Source: Squalus acanthias (taxonomy: Eukaryota). From it: a stretch of DNA of 64,000 bases. This document shows positions 1,501 to 55,075 of this stretch, piece after piece (within the stretch, counting starts at the first letter, position 1; every line of letters begins with the position of its first letter). Location: assembly GCA_030390025.1 (NCBI GenBank), contig CM059432.1, positions 6,138,001 through 6,202,000 on the forward strand, given 5' to 3'. The translations under genes and the position numbers were made by a program. The notes below the pieces were generated by a model that worked only from the letters and a program-made list of their open reading frames with translations, searched no databases and was not told where the DNA came from.

Positions 1501-2424
1501 TATTTCTTGACAATAACTATTCTCCTCACTCTTTTTCCCCCCACTCTCAGATAATACTTTCTCCCATTCCTGTTTCTGGTGTAACCTGGCACCACACAAT
1601 CCCCAGCTAAAAGGAAGGGAAGGTGGCTCTGCTTTCTGGCCTTCACCGATAACACAAGGACATATCCAAGAGCAGTGCTGGGTGACTATCCCTCCAGTTT
1701 TCTCTTTACAAAACACCCAATGTCCACTCACCAGCTCCCCACATCTGCACAGCTGGCATGAGGGATTCAGCTTGTGATAAGGTTACAGGCACACAGTGAT
1801 ATATTACTGGCACAGCACAAACTCATTTTGAAATGATTGCATTTTTTATTTTTCTCTAAGGGAACTATTAAAGTTTCAGCTCAATTCACTCCTTCTCTGC
1901 TAGTTATAGCTAATATTCAAATCTGGTTTTCTGAAAATTCATATTTGGGATTACTAAATTAATTACACTTATTAAGGACTAACATACATGAAGAACAAAG
2001 TTTAATTGATCAGTAAGTCTGATTATTTAAAGAAACATTTAATGAAGTAAAAATATGAGCATACAGGGGTATCATTTTGATCAACCTTACGAAATGACGA
2101 AAACAACTATTAATCTAAGCCCCTCTCCAGCCAATTAGCTCCAGCTTCAGAAATTAAATTGCAAATTAATACCGCTGAGTTTGCACTTGTTTTACGTATT
2201 CCAGTGTAGGCAAATGAGCTCCACAGGAAATTTGGGTGCAAGTTCCCGTCGGCAAGCTCCGTACAGAAATTTTGGCAACATGCAATCCGGGACTATATAT
2301 TCAAACGAAGGTGCTTCAAAGCAGTGCAACGACTCCAGTTTCCACCAGTTTCAGTATGTTAGCCAGTCAACGATCTAGTAGATACTATATGGTAAAAAGA
2401 TATCTCAACAGCTATGCCACTTAC

Positions 2425-2505
2425 CCTTCACCAAGCTTTTCCAATACATCGAAAACCTCTTCAGGCTGCTTCGTGAGGCTGTCTTCACTCAGTTTTTTCA
2501 ACTTG
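2425..2505 (-). CDS. STK3: STK3/MST2 (Hippo kinase) coding exon 2
   Basis: Reverse complement reads ttttctttaatttag|C AAG TTG AAA AAA CTG AGT GAA GAC AGC CTC ACG AAG CAG CCT GAA GAG GTT TTC GAT GTA TTG GAA AAG CTT GGT GAA GG|gtaagt = (S/N)KLKKLSEDSLTKQPEEVFDVLEKLGE(G). It is 81 nt, phase 2-2, with canonical splice sites. It matches the vertebrate STK3 N-terminus as I recall it (KLKKLSEDSL rather than STK4 QLKKLDEDSL). Confidence 0.95.
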
Positions 2506-2699
2506 CTAAATTAAAGAAAAGAAGGAATTGAAGAACGTAAGAAAGCATGGAACAAGAAAAGGCATTCAGCTTATTGAGTCTGTTCCTTCCATACACCATG
2601 TAGAATTAACTCTACCGAAATCAGTGAATTGCTGAGAAAACAATGTTTCTCCTTCCTCCAAGACATGGTTATAACCCCACAACCAGAAATAGATATTAC

Positions 2700-10707: not shown

Positions 10708-10841
10708 AAAACAAAAGCAAAATACTGCAGATGCTGGAAATCTGAAATAAAACAAAAAATGCTGGAAATACTCAGCAGGGCAGGCAGCATCTGTGGAGAA
10801 AGAAAGAGTTAACGTTTCAAGTCGATGACCTTTCATCAGAA
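10708..10841 (-). mobile_element. Short Penelope-like (pLTR) fragment with hammerhead core
   Basis: Same sequence as 36085-36192 and 41770-41955. Flanked by AAGATAATTGAGG (10695-10707) and AAGATAATGGAGG (10840-10852), a probable TSD. Confidence 0.8.
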
Positions 10842-15100: not shown

Positions 15101-17433
15101 TCTAAAGTTCTAAATTCTAAAGTAGTAAGAGTTAGTGTCAAGAGCATAACCCCACAGACAAATAAATACACACATACACACACTCCTAAGTCAGTTAGCA
15201 TTAAGATAGTTAAATTACATTTATCACAATTAAAACAGTAAGTGGTTCTTTTTACCACTCAAACTACAGGCAATAATGGGGCCAAATTCTAATGTAATTC
15301 AAGTTCCTACAATATTTCATGATTGTGAAGTCACAACCAAAAAGCACACAGAAGTATTTGTAAGGTTTTACATCATCATGTAGGGCATAAATTCAATTAT
15401 CCTTTACTAAGGCAGTGAATTACTGCTGAGAAAGCCAACGACGAGTCACGATGAGGGCAGTATGAATGCCAAGAGCAAACAAAGAGAAGTCGTGGATAGT
15501 TTCTAATTAATTTTTTTTTGTCATCTAAAAATGGCTAATATGAACAGGGATTTTGATCTTCCATCCCTTGCACTTTCAGAAGTTCTTATTCACCTGTAAC
15601 TGGTAACCTAAACGAGGACAATGAGAAGATTTAAAGATTTATTCCTTCCTAATATAGAATATCGTCTGGTTTGTAGGAATAAATTCATACCGGGGCCACA
15701 ACTTTATGGGAAGAATTCTTATGTAGCACTACAAGTGGTGCAGTACTGGATTAACAAATTAAGTACTTTTGAATGAATAAGATACAGCTACTAATTGAGA
15801 CCTTTCATAACTTCAATTTACTGCCATACAGAAGACACACTTCTGTGAAGCTCACTGAACCAGTTGTACAGCCTCTCGACCTTTAATACACATTTGTTTT
15901 TGCAGTTGGGTTAATGGCATTCGCTCTGGGGCAGTACAGCACATCCAAAACATTACACATTTGTTTTTTCTTGACTATGTTTTCTGCATTTTATTCTCCT
16001 CATTCCCAAGCATATGGTTATACCATAGAACTACTAAGGATAAGAATGGAAGTGAGAGGCACAACCAATTCTTAACTTATTCCCTTCAAGAAAATATGTC
16101 TCCTTGATAGCTCAGTTATTAATGCCTAAAGTACATTGAGGCTTGAATTGTGATAGTTAGACTGAAGTAAATTATTTATTTAATTAAAAGTCAACTACTA
16201 TGCACCCATTGCATCACACCTTTCAATGGCATATGTCAGTGCATTACACCTGCAAAGCATCAGACATCCATAGAACAAAATTGTGAATGGTTACATTAAA
16301 TTGTATATTTTGTAACTCATCAATAAATCAAAAAGTAGTAAAGTACGAATGATAATGGGTAACCAGCAGAAAACAAAGCAACCAAATCATTATTTCTTAT
16401 TATTATAAGCTTTCATTCACTAACCAGCAAACACAAAAAAACAAAACTGTTCATGAATTTTTTTTTTTGCTTTTATCCACATTTTTCTTCTGCATTCAGG
16501 TTAGTATAGCTAGATTGAAGTAAATTATCTATATAATTAAAACTCATCGACTATGCACCCAAAATATTAACTGTAACATTAACACATAAAATTACACAAT
16601 AGTGCGGAGGGGAGGAGAATATCTCCAAATTTAATTAATGTTAGAAAGCAACAAATTTTCCCCAAATAGGCCTGCTCTTCTATTTGGACCCTAGGACTGG
16701 GTGCTAGAATTTCCAGCTACTGTTGAAAAATTACGCACATGAAATAAAAATACATTATGGGAGCTATTTTCATCCTGGCATGGAATTGAAGTGCCCACAG
16801 TACACTCGGGCAAACCGCATCCTGCAAAAGTCAGGTAGAAAGAACCAGGAGATTTCTGCAAGTGTGAAAGATGCATTATGGGAGCTGTAGTTTTCACAGT
16901 GCTTCTGTTGAACTCCAATATCCAGAACGTACTGTGACTCAGGCAGAACATTTATAATTAACTGCAAGTCACAAGTGGCAGAAAAAATGTTTTTTCAACC
17001 TTCTGTAGATGGTTATTGGAATTCTAAACCAATGTCAAAGGAATTTTTTGTGCTGTGACAAATCTGATGCTCTCGGGCTGCTCTTTATCCAGCAGCGAGG
17101 GGATAAAGAGCGGCCCGAGAGCGGAGCTGAATTAAAGCAGGGGCAGCGGCGAGAGGATAAAGAGCGATCAGAGAGTGGACCTGAATTAAAGCAGCGGCAG
17201 CGCGAGGCTCCAATTCAAAAACAAAGAGTGACATCATAGGAGAGCAGGTAGGTGATTGGTTGGTGAGTATTACAGCTCTTTTAACTCTCTAAGTTAGGGA
17301 AGGGGGTTAAATTAAGAGCTGAGAAACTGTAACTTAATAACTTAAACTAAATAAAATAATTAAACAATAAACCTAAAATATCGATTGAATAAAATCTTTA
17401 ACTAATCAATTAATAAACAAAACAAGGTTAGAG

Positions 17434-34215: not shown

Positions 34216-36055
34216 CATCATGGATTCAGCATGAATTTATCCCCTTTCAGCATTTCAAAGGGACTGTTCCTTCTGATGACCTGGTCCACTCTTCCATCAC
34301 CCCCAATATCTGCACCGCTTCCACTGGTATCTTCCCATGAACACGCAAGAGATGCAACACCTGTCCTTTCATCTCCTCCCTTCCCACTACTTCCGGGTGA
34401 AGCAGCGATTTGCTTGTACTTCTTCCAACTTGGTACACTGTATTCGCTGTTCACGATGCGGTTTGCTCTACCTTGGGGATACCAAACCCAGATTGGGTGA
34501 TCACTTTGCTGAACATCTCTGTTCAGTTCGCGATCATGCGGAGCTTCCAACCGCTTGCCACCTTAATTCTCCATCCCACGCCCAATCTGACCTCTCTGTT
34601 GTGAGTGAGGAGGACATAAAAAACCTGCAAGGGGACATAGACAGGCTAAGTAAGTGGGCAGAGATTTGGCAGATGGAATACAACACTGGAAAGTGTGAGG
34701 TGATGCACTTTGGCAGGAAAAATCCTAGAGCAATTTATTATCTTAATGGCAAGAAACTGGAGAATACTGAAGTGCAAAGGGATCTGGGGGTCCTGGTGCA
34801 CGAAACTCAAAAGGTTAGTATGCAGGTGCAGCAAGTGATTAAGAAGGCAAATGGAATGTTGGCTTTCATTGCTAGGGGGATAGAATATAAAAATAGGGAG
34901 GTATTGCTTCAGTTGTACAAGGTATTGGTGAGACCGCACCTGGAATACTGCATACAGTTTTGGTGTCCTTACTTAAGGAAAGACATCCTTGCTCTCGAGG
35001 CAGTGCAAAAAAGGTTCACTCGGTTAATCCCGGGGATGAGGGGGTGGTCATATGAGGAGAGGTTGGGTAGATTGGGACTCTACTCATTGGAGTTCAGAAG
35101 AATGAGAGGCGATCTTATTGAAACATATAAGATTGTGAAGGGGTTGGATCGGGTGGATGCGGGGAGGATGTTCCCGATGACGGGTGAGACTAGAACTAGG
35201 GGACATAGTCTTAGAATAAGGGGCTGCTCTTTCAAAACTGAGATGAGGAGGAACTACTTCACTCAGAGGGTGGTAGGTCCATGGAATATGCTGCCACAAA
35301 AAGCTGTAGAAGCTACATCATTAAATAAATTTAAAACAGAAATAGACAGTTTCCTAGAAGTAAAGGGCATTAAGGGTTACGGGGAGCGGGCAGGAATTTG
35401 GACATGAGTCTAGGTTCGGATCGGTCATGGCCCTGTGGGTAGTGGAGCGGGCCCAGGGACCGTGTAGCCTGATTCTGCTCCTATTTCGTGTGTGCAATTC
35501 TGTTAGATGCAGGAGATGGTTCTGTGATAGTAGATTGGCGGTTAGGATCAGATCAGCCATGATCTTATTGAATGGCGGAGCAGGCTCGAGGGGCCGATTG
35601 GCCTACTCCTGCTCCTATTTCTTATGTTCTTATGTTCTTATGTTCTGTTCTTGGCTTCCTATATTGTTCCAATGAAGCTCAATGCAAGCTCGAGGAACAG
35701 CACCTCATCTTTCTACCAGTCACTTTACAGCCTTCTGGTCTTAACACTGGGTTTAACAACTTTAGACCTTAAGCACCGCTCCCATTTTCTCTCAGATAGC
35801 AGGTGCTGGTAAAGGAGGAAGGCTGCACCAGAGCAACTGTGAGTGGAGGAAGTGTGGGCTGGTGCTTGGGGAGGGGATACCCACAGCTGGCGGGGTGGTC
35901 CGCACCGCTGAGGTCTATCTGCCTCTCTTCCGCCACATTCCTGGGCCATGGGAGCCTTCTCTGCCAGATTTTCCATGCTTCGTTCCTCCTCTGCTGTTCT
36001 GCTATAACCATTTACACTTCCTCTGGACCCACCTTTTGTTTCTATAACTGCTTTT
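34216..36055 (+). mobile_element. Penelope-like element 3' part (GIY-YIG endonuclease and 3' region), split by a CR1 at 34601-35645
   Basis: F.CTSSNLV.CIRCSRCGLLYLG.TK.RLGD.FAEHL.SVR...CH.NSPSH..SDLSV resumes after the CR1 as LG.L.CSNEAQ.KLEEQHLIF; tctgtt is repeated at both CR1 junctions. Confidence 0.85.
34601..35645 (+). mobile_element. 5'-truncated CR1 with doubled 3' UTR (same subfamily as 60420-64000)
   Basis: SEEDIKNLQGDIDRL...GIKGYGERAGIWT; ends in (ttcttatg)n. Confidence 0.93.
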
Positions 36056-36084: not shown

Positions 36085-36741
36085 AATATAAAATAAAAAC
36101 AAAAAATGCTGGAGATACTCAGCAGGTCAGGCAGCATCTGTGAAGAGAGAAACAGAGTTAACGTTTCAGGTCGATGACCTTTCGTCAGAACTGGAAAAAA
36201 AGCAGGAAATGGAACAGATTTTTAAGCAAGTGTAGGTCTGGGAAATGGGGGAGGGGATGAAAGAACAAAAGGGAAGGTCTGTGATAGGATAGAAGGCAGG
36301 AGAAGTTAAGAGACATTAAGAGATATTCAAGGCAAAAGGAGATGGTAATGGGACAGGTTAAGAAACAAAGGATGGCTCTGGATGAAGTGTAAATTGCGCT
36401 GGCAGAATGAAAGACAGCTGCCATGTGGGAGAGAAGAACAGAAGGCACAAACAAAAAGTGTGGATAAAAAATATATATATATGATAGGGCCAGGTTATGA
36501 TCTGAAATTGTTGAACTCTATGTTGAGTCCAGAAGGCTGTAAAGTGCCTAATCAAAAGATGAGGTGCTGTTCCTCCAGCTTACGCTGAGCTTCCGTGGAA
36601 CAATGCAAGAGGCCGAGGACGGTGAGGTCTGAGTGGGAGTGGAGCGGTGAATTAAAGTGACAGGCAACCGGAAGCTTGGGGTCCCCCTTACGGACTGAAC
36701 GGAGGTGTTCCGCAAAGCGGTCACCCAATCTGCGAATTAAG
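36085..36741 (-). mobile_element. 5'-truncated Penelope-like element with 14-bp TSD
   Basis: RRLGDRFAEHLRSVR...PVACHFNSP.HSHSDL.VLGLLHC..EAQRKLEEQHLIF; AGAAACAAAGCTCT at 36071-36084 and 36742-36755. Confidence 0.88.
36156..36192 (-). ncRNA. Minimal type I hammerhead ribozyme motif
   Basis: AGUU-CUGACGA-A-AGGUC(AUC)GACCU-GAAA-CG-UU-AACU: intact core, 5-bp stem II, 4-bp stem I, palindromic stem III AACGUU. Confidence 0.82.
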
Positions 36742-37590: not shown

Positions 37591-39068
37591 CGGGCTGGGA
37601 CCAGTGTCCTGGCGAATCGAATAACTAGGGCTATATATAGGGCTTTAAACTAAAAAGGGGGTCGAAATCAGGTGAGGTGAAATTTAGAAATCTAAAGAGA
37701 AAAGTCAAGGCAATGGAGCAGTGTAGCAATCTGGGTAAAAATAAGCAGAGTGTGACAGGAAGAGAGAGAATTTAACGGTAATAGTGCATCAGCAAATAAG
37801 ATGAAAGCAGGCAATAATGGCAAAAAAATAAAATTAAAGGCTCTTTATTTGAATGCACAAAGCATTTGTAACAAGATAGATAAATTAGTGGCACAAATAG
37901 AGATAAATGGAGACGTGGTTGCAAGGTGACCAAGGTTGGGAACTAAATATTCCAGGGTACTTGATGTTTCGAAAAGACAGGCAGAATGGAAAAGGAAGGG
38001 GGGTAGCCCTGATAATAAAGGATGGCATAAGGACGATCGTGAGAAAGGATCTTGGCTCAGAAGATCAGGAAGTAGAATCAGTATGGGTGGAGATAAGAAA
38101 TAACAAGGGGCAGAAATCACTGGTGGGACTATTTATAGGCCCCCCAAACAACAGCTATACCGTTGCACAGCGTATTAATCAACAAATAATAGGAGCTTAT
38201 AACAAAAGTAATACAATAATCATGGGGGACTTTAATCTTCATACAGACTGGGCAAATCAAATTGGCAAAAGGTAGTCTGGAGGAAGAGTTAATGGAAAGC
38301 ATTCGAGACAGTTTCATAGAACAATGCGTTATGGAACCAACCAGGGAACAGGCTATTTTAGATCTTGTACTGTGTAATGAGACAGGGTTAATTAGTAATC
38401 TCATAGTAAAGGATCCTCTGGGGAAGAGTGATCTTAATATAATTTCAGACTGAGCTTGAGAGTGAAATTCTAAAATCCGAAATGAAAGTCTTAAACTTAA
38501 ATAAAGCCAATTACATAGGTATGAGGGGCGAGTTTGCTACGGTAGATTAGGACATTAGATTAAAAGGTATGACGGTACATAAGCAGTGACAGACATTTAA
38601 AGAAATATTCCAAAATTCTCAATGAATATACAGTCCCTTGAGAAATAAAAACTCCACGGGAAAAGTGATCCACCTGTGGCTAACTAAAGAAGTTAAGGAT
38701 TGAAATATAGTAAAAGACGAGGCTTATAATGTTGTGAAGAATAGTAGTAAGCCTGAGGATTGGGAGAGCTTTAGAAACCAGCAAAGGATGACCACAAAAT
38801 TGATAAAAAGGGAGAAAATAGAATGAGAGAAAACTAGCAAGAAATATAAAAACAGATTTTAAGAGCTTCTACAAGTATGTAAAAAGGAAGAGAGTAGCAA
38901 AAATAAGCATTGGTCCCTTAGAGGCTGAGACAGGTGAAATTATAATGGGGAATAAGGAAATGGCTAAGACTTTTTAAAAATATTTTGCATCTGTCTTCAC
39001 AGTAGAAAGCACAAAAAGCATACCAAAAATAGCGAAGAACCAAGGGGCTAATAAGAGTGAGGAACTTG

Positions 39069-39756
39069 GGGGGAAAAATTCGGTCGCGCCCCCTTTGGGG
39101 TGCTAACTTTGCCGGGGTGCTACTTTTAGCGCCCCGAAAAAGTTAGCACCCTGCGCCGTAAATTAAGTGGTAGTGCCCCAAGCAGAAGGCGGGGCGCTAC
39201 TGGAAGCGCTCCCCCTCCCTCTTGGGGCGCTACCATTCAACAGTGCCGCAGTATTACAGGCCTCCCTCCCCTGGTTAAAAGGGAGGGGCCTAGCGCAGCA
39301 TGCACCGGGGCCCTGCTGGACCACCGGGGAGCGGGGTGCCGGGAAAACAGCCCGGCACTCAAGAGGAGTGCCAGGCTGACCAATCGTGGCCGGCACCCCG
39401 CATGAAGCAGCGGGAGGGGGTAGGTGCTGGCAGGTGGCCCAATAAAAGGCCACCCGGCACCTGCCCTTTAATTAGCGCTGCCGCAAAAACGCCACCCTGA
39501 CCCTGTCAAACATATCGTCCGGCGGTAGGTCAGGAGGCGCTATCAAAGTTTGCGGTCTGGGCGCGAGCGGGGCGCTGCGCACGGCAATGACATCATCGCC
39601 GGAGGCGCAGTGCCACCGGTAACCGCCACTGCTAACGTCCCACTGAATGTCGCGTGAGGCGTTAGCGGCGCCGCGCCCGGACGCTAGGTACTTTGCACCC
39701 CATTACCGCCCCCTGGGGCGCTAACGGGAGGAGCAAAACAACCCAATTTTTCCCCC
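39069..39756. mobile_element. GC-rich PIF/Harbinger-type non-autonomous element (688 bp)
   Basis: TIRs GGGGGAAAAATTCGGT / ACCCAATTTTTCCCCC (15/16). It interrupts CR1 gaacTTAaagtaat with flanks TTG and TTA, consistent with a 3-bp TWA TSD. Confidence 0.85.
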
Positions 39757-40199
39757 TTAAAGTAATTATCAGTAGAGAAAAAGTACTGAGAAACTAATGG
39801 TACTAAAAGCCAACAAATCCCCTGGACCTCATGGCCTACATCCTAGGGTTCTAAAAGAGGTGGCTGCAGAGATAGTGGATGCATTGGTTGTGATCTTCCA
39901 AAATTCCCTAGATTCTAGAACGGTCCCAGCAGATTGGAAGGTACCAAATGTAACCCTGCTATTCAAGAAAGGAGGGAGAGAAAAAACGGGGAACTAGAGG
40001 CCAGTTAGCCTGACATCAGTCGTCGGGAAAATGCTGGAATCCATTATCAAGGAAGTAATAACAGGTCACTTAGAAAATCATAATATGATTAGGCAGAGAC
40101 AACATGGTTTTATGAAAGGGAAATCGTGTTTAACAAATTTATTAAGAGTTTTTTGAGGATGTAACTAGTAGGGTAAAGGGAACCAGTGGATGTAGTATA

Positions 40200-40564
40200 C
40201 AGGAAACTCTTTACTAACCGGCACCGACGGGACCGGCGTGGTGCCGGTTAATCAAAAAGTCCGGATAACGGAGAGTTATATCTCCCAACGTACGAGAGCC
40301 CCGTACACATTGACATGCGCCTGCATTCGGAGCTCCGTCTCCCCGGGGACCGCCAGCTGACCATCTGTCGTGTCCGCTGCCTACCCGGGCTGCACATTCC
40401 CCTCCCAATCTACACGCTCCGATACAAGGCAAACGCCTCGGGTTTTTTTTTTTAAGTTAATTTTAAACGAGAGATGAAGGAAAACCCCAGTTACCTACTC
40501 AAGAATTTTGCCGGTTAAGAGAGATTTCCGGATATTTGGGTGCCGGTTAATAAAGAGTTTCCTG
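40200..40564. mobile_element. Tc1/mariner-pogo (Tigger-like) MITE (365 bp)
   Basis: TIR CAGGAAACTCTTTA(C/T)TAACCGGCACC (25/26); TA duplicated at 40198-40199 and 40565-40566; the empty site gatgtagtatatttgg is seen at 22621. Confidence 0.9.
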
Positions 40565-41769
40565 TATTTGGATTTCCAAAAGGTATTCGATAAGGTGCCA
40601 CAAAAATGGTTGCTACACAAGATAAGGGCTCATTGGGTTGGGGGTAATATATTAGCATGGATTGAGGATTGGTTAACGGACAGAAAACAGAGAGTAGGGA
40701 TAAATGGGTAATTTTCTGGTTGGCAGGCTGTAACTAATGGGGTGCCGCAAGGATCAGTGCTTGAGCCTCAGCTATTTACAATCTTTTTTAATGACTTAGA
40801 TGAAGGGACCGAGTGCAATATATCCAAGTTTGCTGACAATACAAAGCTAGGTTGGAAAGTAATCAGTGAGGAGAACACAAACAGCCTGCAAAGGGATATA
40901 GACAGCTTAAGTGAGTGGGCAATGAGGTGCAGATGGAGTATAATGTGGGGAAATGTGAGGTTATTCAATTTGGTAGGAAGAATAGAAAAACAGAATATTT
41001 TTTAAATGGTGAGAAACTATTAAATGTTGGTGTTCAGAGATTTAAGTGTCCTCGTACAGGAAACATAAAGTTAGCATGCAGGTACAGTAAGCAATTCGGA
41101 AGGCAAATGGCATGTGGCCTTTATTGCAAGGGGGTTGGAGTACAAGAGTAAGGACGTCTTCCTCCAATTGTACAGGGCTTTGGTGAGACCACACCTGGAG
41201 TACTGTGCAGTTTTAATCCTTCTCTGAAAAGGACATACTTGCCTTCGAGGCAATACTCTCTGGAGTTCAGAAGAATGAGAGGTGATCTCATTGAAACATA
41301 TAAGATGGTGAGGGGGATTGACAGGGTAGATGCGGAGAGGTTGTTTCCCCTGGCTAGAGAGTCTAGAACTAGGGGGCATAGTCTCAGGATAAGGGGTCGG
41401 CCATTTAAGACGGAGATGGGGAGGAATTTCTTCACTCAGAGGGTTGTGAATCTTTGGAATTCTCTACTCCAAAGGGCTGCGGATGCTGAGTCGTTGAGTA
41501 TATTCAAGGCTGAGATCGATAGATTTTTGGACTCTGGGGAATCAAGGGATATGGAGATCGGGCGGGAAAGTGGAATTGAGGTCGAAGATCAGCCATGATC
41601 TTATTGAATGGCGGAGCAGGTTCAAAGGGCCGTATGGCCTACTCCTGCTCCTAATTCTTATGTTTATTCCATTTTGAAAAGCTTTTTGACAAGTTTCTAG
41701 GTCAGAGGTTAATGGCTAAAGCAGAGTCATAGAATCAAGTGCGGTGCTGCACAGAAACGTTTCAGGTTG

Positions 41770-41955
41770 TACTTGCTTAAAACCTGTTACATCTCTAACC
41801 TTTTCCAGATCTGACGAAAGGTCATCGACCTGAAACTTTAACTCTGTTTCTCTCTCTCTCTCTCCACAGATGCTGCCTGACCTGCTGAGTATTTCCAGCA
41901 TTTTCAGTTTTTATTTCAGATTTCCAGCATCCGCAGTATTTCGCTTTTGTTTCAG
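41770..41955 (+). mobile_element. Penelope-like pLTR fragment with degenerate hammerhead (41807-41843)
   Basis: ctgacgaaaggtcatcgacctgaaacttta...cacagatgctgcctgacctgctgagtatttccagcattttc. Confidence 0.8.
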
Positions 41956-51949: not shown

Positions 51950-52500
51950 ATCACAGTCCATGCCATCTCCAATCACTTCCTCGTATCCCTCATCACCCAT
52001 AACCTGCTTCCAACTCCATTTTCTTTTGCATACACACCTGGAAAAACTCTCCCTCAAGTCATTTACAACTGAACTTTCAAACTCCCAACTAACTAGCCTT
52101 TGGCGTCTGTTCACCTCGATAGTTCTGCAGGTGTTGATCAGCTTAACTACTCCCACACCTCCACCTTTGATGCCCTTGTCCCTAGTAAAACTCTTACTCT
52201 CTCCCAACCAAGTCATTCACCATGATATGGCCTTATCTTCAGCCCCTCGAGTCCAAGGGGCACAGGCTTGAGTGTATCTCATGCACAACTGGTTTATCCA
52301 TCCATCTCCAGATATGGCTGGACCTCATCAAGCATTGATCTCCTCTGCCAAGACCACTCACAATTCCAGGATCATTCTGGAAATCAAAGATAACCATCAT
52401 CTCCTTAAATCCCTCTCCACTGCCCCCTCCAACAAGTGTGAGGAGCTCATGGACTTCTTTGTCACTAAAATGAAGACCATCCATTCACCTACCTCTACCG
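51950..52500 (+). mobile_element. Old L2 fragment
   Basis: Matches the reverse complement of ~49170-49680 (ccacctttgatgccct, ggatcattctggaa, cctccaacaagtgtgaggag). Confidence 0.75.
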
Positions 52501-52853
52501 CATTGTGGCTCAGTGGCAAATTGTCTTTGATAGGTGGTTAAGGCGGCATACGGGATACTTTCCTTTAATAGCTGAGGCATAGAATATAAGAGCAGGGAGC
52601 TTATGCTTGAACTGCATAAAACACTAGATATGGCCACAGCTAGAGTACTGCGTACAGTTCTGGTCACCAGATTGCAGGAAAGAGGGTACAGAGGATATTG
52701 CCAGGACTGGAGAATTTGAGCCATAAGGAAAGATTGGATAGGCTGGGGTTGTCTTCTTTGAAACATGATGCGGAGATGCCGGCGTTGGACTGGGGTGGAC
52801 AAAAATGAGAAGTCGCACAACACCAGGTTATAGTCCAACAGATATATTTAAAA

Positions 52854-52895
52854 TTACAAGCTTTCGGAGCTATCGATCGCCCCTTCTTCAGGTAA
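52854..52895 (-). ncRNA. Minimal hammerhead ribozyme motif (left arm; sense to the STK3 pre-mRNA)
   Basis: Mirror image of 53778-53819. Confidence 0.8.
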
Positions 52896-53777
52896 AGTTA
52901 CTATGAGTGAATCTACAAAAGTTCACAGAATTTAAACACAGAAAAAGCAGAGATACAATCTTTCTTACATCAAAGACACACCAAGAGCACAGCCAAGACA
53001 ATGAGATGTGTCCCAGGGGGTCCAACGTGTCAAATCCTGCTGTCTGCGTATCCTCTCCATATCCCTTCCTCTCTCTTCGTCCTTTTTGGGTTTGTATTTT
53101 GTGTTTGTTTTTTTGTGTTTGTTTTTTAAAAACTGGAAAGACAGACAACGATGTCAAGTCACGTTCTGTAGCGTGACATGAACCCGATATCCCTATTGAG
53201 GCCGTCCTCATGAGTGCGGAACTTGGCTATCAGTTTCTGCTCGATGATTTTGCGTTGTCGTGTGTCTCGAAGGCCGCCTTGGAGAACGCTAACCCGTAGA
53301 TCCGAGGCTGAATGCCCTTGACTGCTGAAGTGTTCCCCACACTTCAGCAGTCAAGGGCATTCAGCCTCGGATCTGCGGGTTAGCGTTCTCCAAGGCGGCC
53401 TTCGAGACACACGACAACGCAAAATCATCGAGCAGAAACTGATAGCCAAGTTCCGCACTCATGAGGACGGCCTCAATAGGGATATCGGGTTCATGTCACG
53501 CTACAGAACGTGACTTGACATCGTTGTCTGTCTTTCCAGTTTTTAAAAAACAAACACAAAAAAACAAACACAAAATACAAACCCAAAAAGGACGGAGAGA
53601 GAGGAAGGGATATGGAGAGGATACGCAGACAGCAGGATTTGACACGTTGGACCCCCTGGGACACATCTCATTGTCTTGGCTGTGCTCTTGGTGTGTCTTT
53701 GATGTAAGGAAAGATTGTATCTCTGCTTTTTCTGTGTTTAAATTCTGTGAACTTTTGTAGATTCACTCATAGTAACT

Positions 53778-53819
53778 TTACCTGAAGAAGGGGCGATCGA
53801 TAGCTCCGAAAGCTTGTAA
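53778..53819 (+). ncRNA. Minimal hammerhead ribozyme motif (right arm)
   Basis: UUAC-CUGAAGA-A-GGGGC(GAUCGAUA)GCUCC-GAAA-GC-UU-GUAA; palindromic stem III AAGCUU. Confidence 0.8.
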
Positions 53820-54460
53820 TTTTAAATAAATCTGTTGGACTATAACCTGGTGTTGTGCGACTTCTCTTCTTTGAAACAGAGGAGGCTAAGGGAAGACTTA
53901 ATTGAAGTGTATAAAGTTTTGAGGGGCCTAGATAGAGTGGATAGGAAGGACCTATTTGTCTTAGCAGAGTGGTCAATAACTAGATTTAAAGTAATTGGTA
54001 GAGGATTAGAGGGGAGTTGAGGAGAACTTTGTTCACCCAGAGGGTGGTAGGGGTCTGGAATTCACTGCCTGAAAGAGTGGTAGAGGCAGAAACCCTCAAT
54101 GCATTTAAAAAGTACTTGGATATGCACTTGAAGTGCCATAACCTACAGGGCTACGGACCAAGAGCTGGAAAGTGGGATTAGGCTAGATAGCTGTTTTTCG
54201 GCCGGCACAGACACAATGGGCCGAATGGCATCCTTCTGTGCTGTAAATTTCTATGATTCTATAAAAGGATTCAATCGGGTAGATTCAGAGAAACTATTCC
54301 CTCTGGGAGGGGATTCCAGAACAAGGGGGCATAATCTTAAAATTGGAGCTATGTCATTCAAGCGTAAAAATCAGGAAGCACTTTTTCCCCCCAGAGAGTA
54401 TTGGAAATCTGGAACATTCTCCCCCAAAAGGCTGTGGATGCTAAGTCAATTGAAATTTTC

Positions 54461-55075
54461 AAGACTGAGATCGATAAGATTTTTTTTTAAGTATGGGTAT
54501 CAAGGGATATGGAGCATCTTAAAGGAGAGGCGGAGAGGTTTAGGGAGGGAATTCCAGAGCTTAGGGCCTTGGCAGCTAAAGGCACGGCCACCAATGGTTG
54601 AGCAATTATAATCAGGGTTGCTCAAGAGGGCAGAATTAGAGGAGCGCAGATATCTCAGAGAGTTGTGGAGCTGGAGGAGATTACAGAGATAGGGAGGGGC
54701 AAGGCCATGAAGGGATTTGAAAACAAGGATGAGAATTTTGAAATTGAGGCCTTGCTTAACCAGGAGCCAATGTAGGTCAGCGAGCACAGGGGTGATGGGT
54801 GAACGGGACTTGGTGCAAGTTAGGACACATTTATCCACCCTGTACCTTCATCTACCTATCCAAATCAAATGATGTTAACATAGACTCTGAGATATCTGCG
54901 CTCCTCTAATTCTGCCCTCTTGAGCAACCCTGATTATAATCGCTCAACCATTGGTGGCCGTGCCTTCAGCTGCCAAGGCCCTAACCTCTGGAATTCCCTC
55001 CCTAAACCTCTCCTTTAAGATGCTCCATATCCCTTGATACCCATACTTTTAAAAAATCTTATCGATCTCAGTCTT
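54461..55075. repeat. ~200-bp inverted duplication (54461-54660 vs 54885-55075) spanning a CR1/L2 junction
   Basis: aagactgagatcgataagatt...ggatatggagcatcttaaaggagagg...gatatctcagag recurs as its reverse complement. Confidence 0.9.

What the first reader, a model, noticed from the sequence alone, without database searches (positions are those of the whole stretch)
52766..53878. ~1.06 kb near-perfect palindrome formed by an inverted Penelope insertion, with a hammerhead in each arm
Seen: arms of ~527 bp (52807-53333 and 53339-53866) separated by only TCCCC. I count three substitutions and one 1-nt indel between them. The left arm has ~40 extra nt at its outer end (52766-52806). A 10-14 bp target duplication (TCTTCTTTGAAACA) splits a CR1. 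Both arms carry the GIY-YIG C-terminus and an intact hammerhead core. Established: Penelope elements often have inverted pLTR arrangements, and long, nearly spacerless palindromes are usually unstable. Inference: a recent insertion made by fold-back second-strand synthesis. If this lies inside the STK3 intron, it would form >500 bp of dsRNA (ADAR/Dicer substrate) and a potential cruciform, and the long duplex would sequester the ribozyme.
Basis: partly seen in the sequence, partly recalled or inferred. Interest (0 to 1): 0.7.

Follow-up and report, generated by a model that had tools for sequence, protein, structure and literature searches.

The report
Head-to-head Penelope retroelement insertion
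Two short, mirror-image ends of a very common shark jumping gene (a Penelope-like element) landed head to head inside an older repeat, which is a standard, already described way for these elements to insert.

Summary
Arms 52807-53333 and 53339-53866 differ by 3 substitutions and 1 indel, around a 5-nt centre. There is a 41-nt one-sided extension and a 14-nt target duplication; removing the insert restores the host LINE's frame. Each arm carries the last ~56 codons of a Penelope RT/GIY-YIG ORF (95% to a shark protein) and a minimal hammerhead. This head-to-head layout with tail, TSD, junction palindrome and opposite-strand hammerheads is published for Penelope-like elements, and this scan met it before on other DNA. 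The extension is the family 'tail': 8 of 8 listed joints from host repeats enter the element at the two ends used here. A fold-back assembly artefact is unlikely, though no centre-spanning contig was listed. Best mechanism: target-primed cDNA folds back on itself (about 0.6). The rival is separate priming from both nicked strands (about 0.25). The hammerheads lie on opposite strands and lack helix III, so one transcript holds one ribozyme plus its antisense. The STK3-intron location is unproven (only one exon found, 50 kb away); editing, small RNAs and polymorphism are untested. Ordinary; low interest.

The parts
52540..52765 (+). 5' part of the host LINE fragment (RT C-terminal region, CR1-type by recall), ending in the left TSD copy; start coordinate approximate
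   Evidence: Peptide 52644-52763 matches LINE copies elsewhere in the window; one of them lies in a 770-aa ORF with Pfam RVT_1, E 2.5e-33
52752..52765 (+). Left copy of the target-site duplication (14 nt at most)
   Evidence: Uninterrupted family copies run from 52765 into sequence like the right flank (loose ends in X5, X7, X10)
52766..52806 (-). 41-nt Penelope 'tail', on the left arm only
   Evidence: 8 of 8 listed flank-to-element joints land at 52763-52766 (4) or 52801-52807 (4) (lists cut). Tail described in PMC11167929, PMC8557442 and PMC3846280
52807..53333 (-). Left arm: 5'-truncated Penelope copy (ORF end, 3' UTR, pLTR with hammerhead)
52859..52895 (-). Minimal type-I hammerhead motif of the left arm
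53162..53338 (-). Left-arm coding remnant, reading GEHF to the stop; it includes the centre
   Evidence: tblastn of P0001, E 8e-30
53334..53338 (.). 5-nt centre: native Penelope sequence that continues the left arm, not inserted bases
   Evidence: Family contigs leave the window sequence after 53338 in 4 of 4 runs
53339..53866 (+). Right arm: inverted 5'-truncated copy without the tail
53340..53513 (+). Right-arm coding remnant, 57 aa, the C-terminus of the endonuclease domain
   Evidence: 95% to P0001 (RT plus endonuclease region, 643 aa); P0004 passes the Pfam GIY-YIG cut-off
53778..53818 (+). Minimal hammerhead of the right arm: 4-bp helix I, CUGAAGA core, extra A, 5-bp helix II, GAAA, and a palindromic AGCU in place of helix III
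   Evidence: matches the features listed in PMC4209133
53865..53878 (+). Right copy of the target-site duplication; first 2 nt shared with the arm end
53879..54200 (+). 3' part of the host LINE fragment, in frame with the left part once the insert and one TSD copy are discounted; end coordinate approximate
   Evidence: in 4 intact window copies the two matches are one codon apart, as here
2424..2510 (-). Context: the one STK3-like coding exon found, 50 kb from the palindrome
   Evidence: Residues 2-29 are identical to STK3 chain 4lgd_A, E 3.2e-11

Best explanation
One retrotransposition event of an endonuclease-bearing Penelope-like element into a dead LINE. Shown: identity, boundaries, TSD, head-to-head geometry, one-sided tail, and a centre made of native left-arm sequence. 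Inferred: the GIY-YIG endonuclease made staggered nicks up to 14 nt apart. The nick at 52765 primed cDNA at the outer start site (so the tail is included) and copied about 573 nt. The cDNA 3' end turned back on itself at 53338 and was extended along itself, giving the mirror arm. The returning strand was joined to the other target end at the family's second recurrent terminus, 41 nt short of the first. That last step could be an endonuclease cut, a block by the bound protein, or annealing to a short cDNA primed from the second nick. The product is a non-coding, non-autonomous relic. Any transcript through it would make the antisense arm first and bury the single hammerhead in a ~527-bp duplex.
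For: The two truncation points lie within 5 nt of each other; fold-back gives this directly, whereas independent truncations would rarely coincide (inference). The centre continues the tailed arm in frame. Both arms carry the same letters at sites where most family depth differs: at 52932, 70,899 of 71,709 depth in X1 and 49,444 of 52,123 in X5 read the other letter; at 52946, 33,618 of 35,283 and 149,817 of 159,286 (no arm mismatch there). So the arms share one source haplotype. The host frame is restored exactly. PMC3846280 (Discussion read) infers self-priming on an antisense template from junction palindromes; first-strand cDNA is antisense (my inference). Fold: 1056-1068 of 1101 nt paired, and hammerhead bases pair with the other arm.
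Against: No clear priming microhomology is left at the junction: the family continues with G, the locus with A, and only 3 of the listed X1 contigs share that A. Stems available within the arm are 1-3 bp. A 9-bp native inverted complement just beyond the centre is seen by eye in the X7 consensus, but it is weaker in the X1, X5 and X10 consensus and would need a later 12-nt deletion. The right end sits at the second recurrent terminus, which in the anole element is a second RT start site used from either strand (PMC11167929); this fits separate priming better. No centre-spanning contig was among the 32 pieces listed (41,665 not shown).
Confidence: 0.6

Rival explanations
1. Dual target-primed reverse transcription without fold-back. 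A dimeric enzyme primes from both nicked strands, one at the outer start site (tail) and one at the inner site (no tail). Both cDNAs stall at about the same template structure and are joined head to head.
For: The anole element cleaves and extends both strands and starts at two sites that bound the tail (PMC11167929). The locus uses both recurrent family termini. Three X5 joints land at 53346-53347, which mirror 53325-53326, a weak hint of a stall region near the centre.
Against: It needs two truncations within 5 nt. The three joints come from one run, two are flagged 'between: not known', only joints landing in the 37 right-arm bases laid could show up this way, and a common variant could clip alignments there.
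Confidence: 0.25
2. The symmetry is secondary. An older or more asymmetric inverted insertion was made perfect later by arm-to-arm conversion, central deletion, or break-induced inverted duplication.
For: Shared minor alleles would also arise by conversion. A second inverted duplication lies 583 bp away. Small-hairpin inverted duplications with 2-bp microhomology are reported at L1-induced breaks (10.1101/2024.12.14.628481, passages).
Against: The clean TSD, the restored host frame and the two canonical ends argue for one insertion event. Central rearrangements usually lengthen spacers rather than shorten them (recalled). At least one shared allele (52946) also sits in a multi-copy contig (X10 record 12, depth 382).
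Confidence: 0.1
3. Fold-back read or assembly artefact; the genome has one arm.
For: Palindromes trouble assemblers (PMC8557442 passage). One search listed no contig across the centre.
Against: The right flank is not the mirror of the left (best local score 18) and continues the host LINE in the right orientation after an exact TSD. The mirror arm stops at a natural family terminus. The arms differ at 4 places, and at 2 of them the right-arm letter is a common family allele.
Confidence: 0.04

Closest known systems
Inverted-pLTR insertions of endonuclease-bearing Penelope-like elements, e.g. Pen2a_Av and Pen2_Av of Adineta vaga (PMC3846280; passages and Discussion read)
   Same: Head-to-head inverted copies, palindrome at the junction, 9-10-bp TSD, 31-bp tail on one end, insertion into a non-LTR element, self-priming proposed
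   Different: Here both copies are cut to about 530 nt, so the whole insert is one palindrome. The arms include coding sequence, the tail is 41 nt and the TSD up to 14 nt
General PLE insertion scheme (PMC8557442, PMC2377424, PMC8969392; passages read)
   Same: An inverted 5'-truncated copy next to the main copy, a 30-40-bp tail at one end, inverted repeats of variable size
   Different: No full-length ORF and no direct tandem pLTR at this locus
Poseidon from Anolis carolinensis, PAc (PMC11167929; parts 1-2 of 4 read)
   Same: Two recurrent 3' ends that bound the tail, hammerhead in the pLTR, AT-rich target
   Different: The paper does not reconstitute an inverted product. Clade placement of the shark element was not tested by a tree
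Minimal hammerheads of metazoan PLEs (PMC4209133; parts 1-2 of 4 read)
   Same: Short helix I, unpaired base between positions 9 and 10.1, G10.1-C11.1 pair, palindromic 15.2-16.2, no helix III; pairs on opposite strands 100-700 bp apart already reported
   Different: Helix II is 5 bp here (7-8 bp in Schistosoma). The two cores are about 890 bp apart
Penelope inverted-repeat copies as siRNA sources in Drosophila (PMC3681739; passages read)
   Same: Long inverted repeats able to give dsRNA
   Different: Transcription and small RNAs are not shown for this locus
L1 twin priming (10.1101/2024.12.14.628481, passages; model details recalled)
   Same: Both target ends extended, inverted 5' part, TSD
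   Different: L1 inversions join non-overlapping parts of one RNA; here the same part is present twice

Membership tests
Endonuclease-bearing Penelope-like element | Single ORF with RT followed by a C-terminal GIY-YIG endonuclease | tested here: met
   Met through homologues. The arm peptide is 95% identical to the end of P0001 (RVT_1, E 5.2e-9); of 6 homologues scanned, 4 hit Pfam GIY-YIG and 1 passed the cut-off. The locus keeps only the last ~56 codons.
Endonuclease-bearing Penelope-like element | Hammerhead motif in the pLTR | tested here: met
   Motif and fold in both arms. Rfam gave no hit at gathering score.
Endonuclease-bearing Penelope-like element | 30-40-bp tail on one end | tested here: met
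   41 nt on the left only; 8 of 8 listed flank joints at the two ends (lists cut by 12 and 9 rows).
Endonuclease-bearing Penelope-like element | 5' truncation, inverted adjacent copy, TSD | tested here: met
Penelope/Poseidon clade | RT phylogeny; no extra Zn-finger-like linker motif of the Neptune/Nematis kind | not tested
   No tree was built and no reference set was at hand; placement is only likely.
Active hammerhead ribozyme | Stable helix III as a monomer | tested here: not met
   Only the single closing pair forms in the monomer fold, and z is -0.9. A co-fold of two copies did not give the dimeric helix III as its lowest-energy structure.
Active hammerhead ribozyme | Self-cleavage | not testable with these tools
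   Needs an assay. A single minimal motif showed no cleavage in PMC4209133, and the anole motif needed protein in PMC11167929.
Intronic inverted-repeat dsRNA (ADAR/Dicer substrate) | Lies within a transcription unit | tested here: inconclusive
   One STK3-like exon at 2424-2510 (-). No convincing first exon among the candidates listed.
CR1 clade (host) | LINE RT of the CR1 clade | tested here: inconclusive
   LINE RT relation shown; the clade name is recalled from motifs.

The most novel reading that the evidence does not exclude
The locus records a two-step PLE integration route that has not been reconstituted. Fold-back of the first cDNA makes the symmetric centre, while a second cDNA primed from the opposite nick at the inner start site supplies the tail-less end. 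The two products are complementary and anneal. This would explain the tight centre and the one-sided tail together. A very abundant young shark family would let it be tested genome-wide, and intronic copies could be a steady source of long dsRNA.
Probability: 0.25. Interest if true: 0.45.

Novelty: new member of a known kind. Interest (0 to 1): 0.17.

Why it matters
As a single locus it matters little: it is a clean example of a described insertion layout. Its value is as one data point for an open question, how PLEs build inverted copies and tails, which PMC8557442 calls undefined. A young, very abundant shark family offers many such junctions for a census. If the site proves intronic and transcribed, it would be a >500-bp near-perfect dsRNA in a Hippo-pathway gene, but nothing here shows that.

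Tried and rejected
No whole genome is held for this window, so no census of head-to-head copies and no search for STK3 exon 1 outside the window were possible. Pfam on 8 short local ORFs found nothing at E below 0.1. Rfam gave 0 matches at gathering score. The exon-1 search by ATG...GT pattern gave no convincing candidate; the CpG-rich stretch 38800-40800 looked like repeat sequence. Sequencing runs: no RNA holder listed; X10 is only a guessed RNA run and its contigs reflect the family, so it says nothing on expression or editing. Of 24 runs, 4 were laid, on one arm plus the centre (52300-53375); no listed piece bridges the centre or a junction, and the lists are cut, so neither artefact nor polymorphism was settled directly. 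Loose ends that read through the target site are from paralogues, not an empty allele. Summed depth rises from the tail bin to the next bin in X1 (3.2 to 4.9 million), X5 (1.7 to 6.4 million) and X10, but falls in X7; it was not used as evidence. The metagenome scan gave 4 loci at 38-45% identity, none useful and none examined further. Look-ups of earlier findings by sequence and near this place returned nothing. A paper search for Penelope + retrotransposon + palindrom + shark gave 2 unrelated reviews; searches listed no shark-specific or fold-back-specific PLE study beyond PMC3846280; (STK3 intron) was uninformative. Rejected: a double hammerhead in cis (opposite strands); a MITE or other DNA transposon (coding remnant, tail); a functional ORF across the centre (stop at 53319-53321). 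No supplements were read.

Full report
Observation. Alignment of the left arm with the reverse complement of the right arm gives arms 52807-53333 and 53339-53866, with 3 substitutions and one 1-nt indel, around a 5-nt centre. The left arm has 41 extra bases (52766-52806). A 14-nt direct repeat flanks the whole and occurs only twice in the window. The central 81 nt fold far better than 200 of 200 shuffles.

Identity. The 57-aa frame at 53340-53510 found 18 proteins among 28 candidates. The best, P0001 (643 aa, named by its source as a shark protein), is 95% identical and carries RVT_1. Of 6 homologues scanned, 4 hit Pfam GIY-YIG, 1 of them above the cut-off. The arms hold only the part after the catalytic motifs, and Pfam is silent on the arm peptides themselves. 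On the minus strand the left arm still matches P0001 through GEHF, so the 5-nt centre is native left-arm sequence. In all 4 runs laid, family contigs leave the window sequence after 53338, which places the turn-round point there.

Target. The flanks are two halves of one LINE fragment. Each half matches other copies in the window, and in 4 intact copies the two matches are one codon apart (for example 35092 and 35096). That is what remains here when the insert and one TSD copy are discounted. One of these copies lies in a 770-aa RT frame. The name CR1 is recalled, not tested.

Real or artefact. A fold-back chimera would mirror the left flank. It does not (best local score 18); the host continues forward after an exact TSD. 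The mirror arm also stops at a natural terminus. Among the joints listed, 8 of 8 distinct ones that run from host repeats into the element land at 52763-52766 (4) or 52801-52807 (4); 12 and 9 further rows were not shown. At 53297 the right-arm letter is the family majority (95% of X1 depth, 92% of X5), and the right arm's extra base is common in the family; the other two differences were not listed. Against this, no listed contig bridges the centre (32 pieces shown, 41,665 not). Flank contigs with no differing letters have depth near 18, while summed depth over the arm mostly runs from 1e5 to over 1e6. The family is therefore very abundant, although the tool warns that this is no copy number. 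Polymorphism was not settled.

Age. The frame is open, CpG o/e is 0.80 against 0.40 for the window, and the arms differ by 0.57% (95% CI 0.12-1.65%). It is young relative to its surroundings. No absolute date is given, since conversion between arms could hide age.

Hammerheads. Both arms carry a 4-bp helix I, the CUGAAGA core, an unpaired A, a 5-bp helix II and GAAA followed by a palindromic tetramer in place of helix III. These are the minimal, dimer-type motifs of PMC4209133 (parts 1-2 of 4 read), which also reports pairs on opposite strands 100-700 bp apart and no cleavage by a single motif. Rfam does not score them. Because the copies lie on opposite strands, any transcript has one ribozyme, and head-to-head geometry puts its antisense first. 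The predicted fold pairs 1056-1068 of 1101 nt and buries the core. Sequestration follows, but the motif would be nearly inactive alone anyway.

Gene context. A motif scan found one STK3-like exon, 2424-2510 on the minus strand, identical over 28 residues to STK3 chain 4lgd_A. The palindrome lies 50 kb on its 5' side. No convincing first exon was found, so the site is either in a long first intron or upstream of the gene. Editing and small RNAs were not testable. The idea has a precedent: Drosophila siRNAs map to inverted Penelope regions (PMC3681739, passages). Instability of short-spacer inverted repeats is established in yeast, where mismatches near the centre reduce it (PMC10164571, passages); the innermost mismatch here is 37 bp from the centre.

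Mechanism. Two facts need explaining: truncation points within 5 nt of each other, and outer ends at the family's two recurrent termini. Fold-back of the first cDNA gives the first directly. It fits the centre belonging to the tailed arm and the alleles shared by both arms. PMC3846280 (Discussion read) already reads junction palindromes as self-priming on an antisense template. The weak point is that no clear microhomology survives. Separate priming from both nicks gives the second fact directly: the anole enzyme cleaves and extends both strands and starts at two sites that bound the tail (PMC11167929). It needs two matching stalls. I put fold-back at about 0.6, pure dual priming at 0.25, later homogenisation at 0.1 and artefact at 0.04. 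A combined route (fold-back centre, second-nick end) is my inference, falls within the first, and is the most novel reading left.

Comparison and verdict. Inverted 5'-truncated copies, one-sided tails, TSDs and junction palindromes are described in PMC3846280, PMC8557442, PMC2377424 and PMC8969392 (passages). Earlier notes of this scan report the same layout in other genomes; they are unchecked and are not counted as support. The searches run listed no shark-specific description, but the library lacks most subscription papers and repeat databases. PMC abstracts or listings not named above were seen only as search results; 10.64898/2026.07.22.740005 was read as passages and added nothing specific. 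This is a new copy of a known kind, of low interest on its own.

Noticed in passing
window 54461-54660 and 54885-55075: A second inverted repeat 583 bp from the palindrome: 5 mismatches in 191 aligned bases, indels of 1 and 8 nt, 224-nt spacer. The arms span a junction between two different repeats (CR1-like and L2-like by recall), so it looks like a templated inverted duplication of host DNA rather than an element's own ends. A link to breakage at the palindrome is possible but untested.
   Followed up: partly
window 34394-34600 (+), 35647-35772 (+), 36522-36737 (-), 36164-36188 (-): Older, distant Penelope-like endonuclease fragments (33-37% to P0001). The two + pieces flank a LINE insertion and face a - copy with its own hammerhead-like motif; 35647-35772 and 36495-36620 are 79% inverted matches.
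   Followed up: partly
window 10815-10839 (-), 36164-36188 (-), 41811-41835 (+): Three related hammerhead-like motifs of a second, older repeat family, with similar downstream sequence.
   Followed up: no
window 34280-35404 (+): A 375-codon stop-free frame runs from a Penelope-like endonuclease fragment into a LINE fragment; probably a chance in-frame junction.
   Followed up: no
P0002, P0008, P0014, P0017, P0018: Five predicted shark proteins, four named XRCC5, FAM210B, septin 5a and FAM204A isoforms, carry this Penelope endonuclease end. P0002 and P0014 enter it near the same motif, which may be annotation error or a cryptic splice acceptor.
   Followed up: partly
window 53346-53347 (run X5): Three joints from 52831, 53017 and 53252 land here. 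They may be other head-to-head junctions of the family with unequal arms and a shared stop near this centre, or alignment clipping.
   Followed up: partly
window 17069-17122 and 39098-39151: Two 54-nt imperfect palindromes (81%) with the same score; not examined.
   Followed up: no
window 2424-2510 (-): STK3-like coding exon with canonical AG/GT ends; it is the only kinase motif hit in the window.
   Followed up: yes
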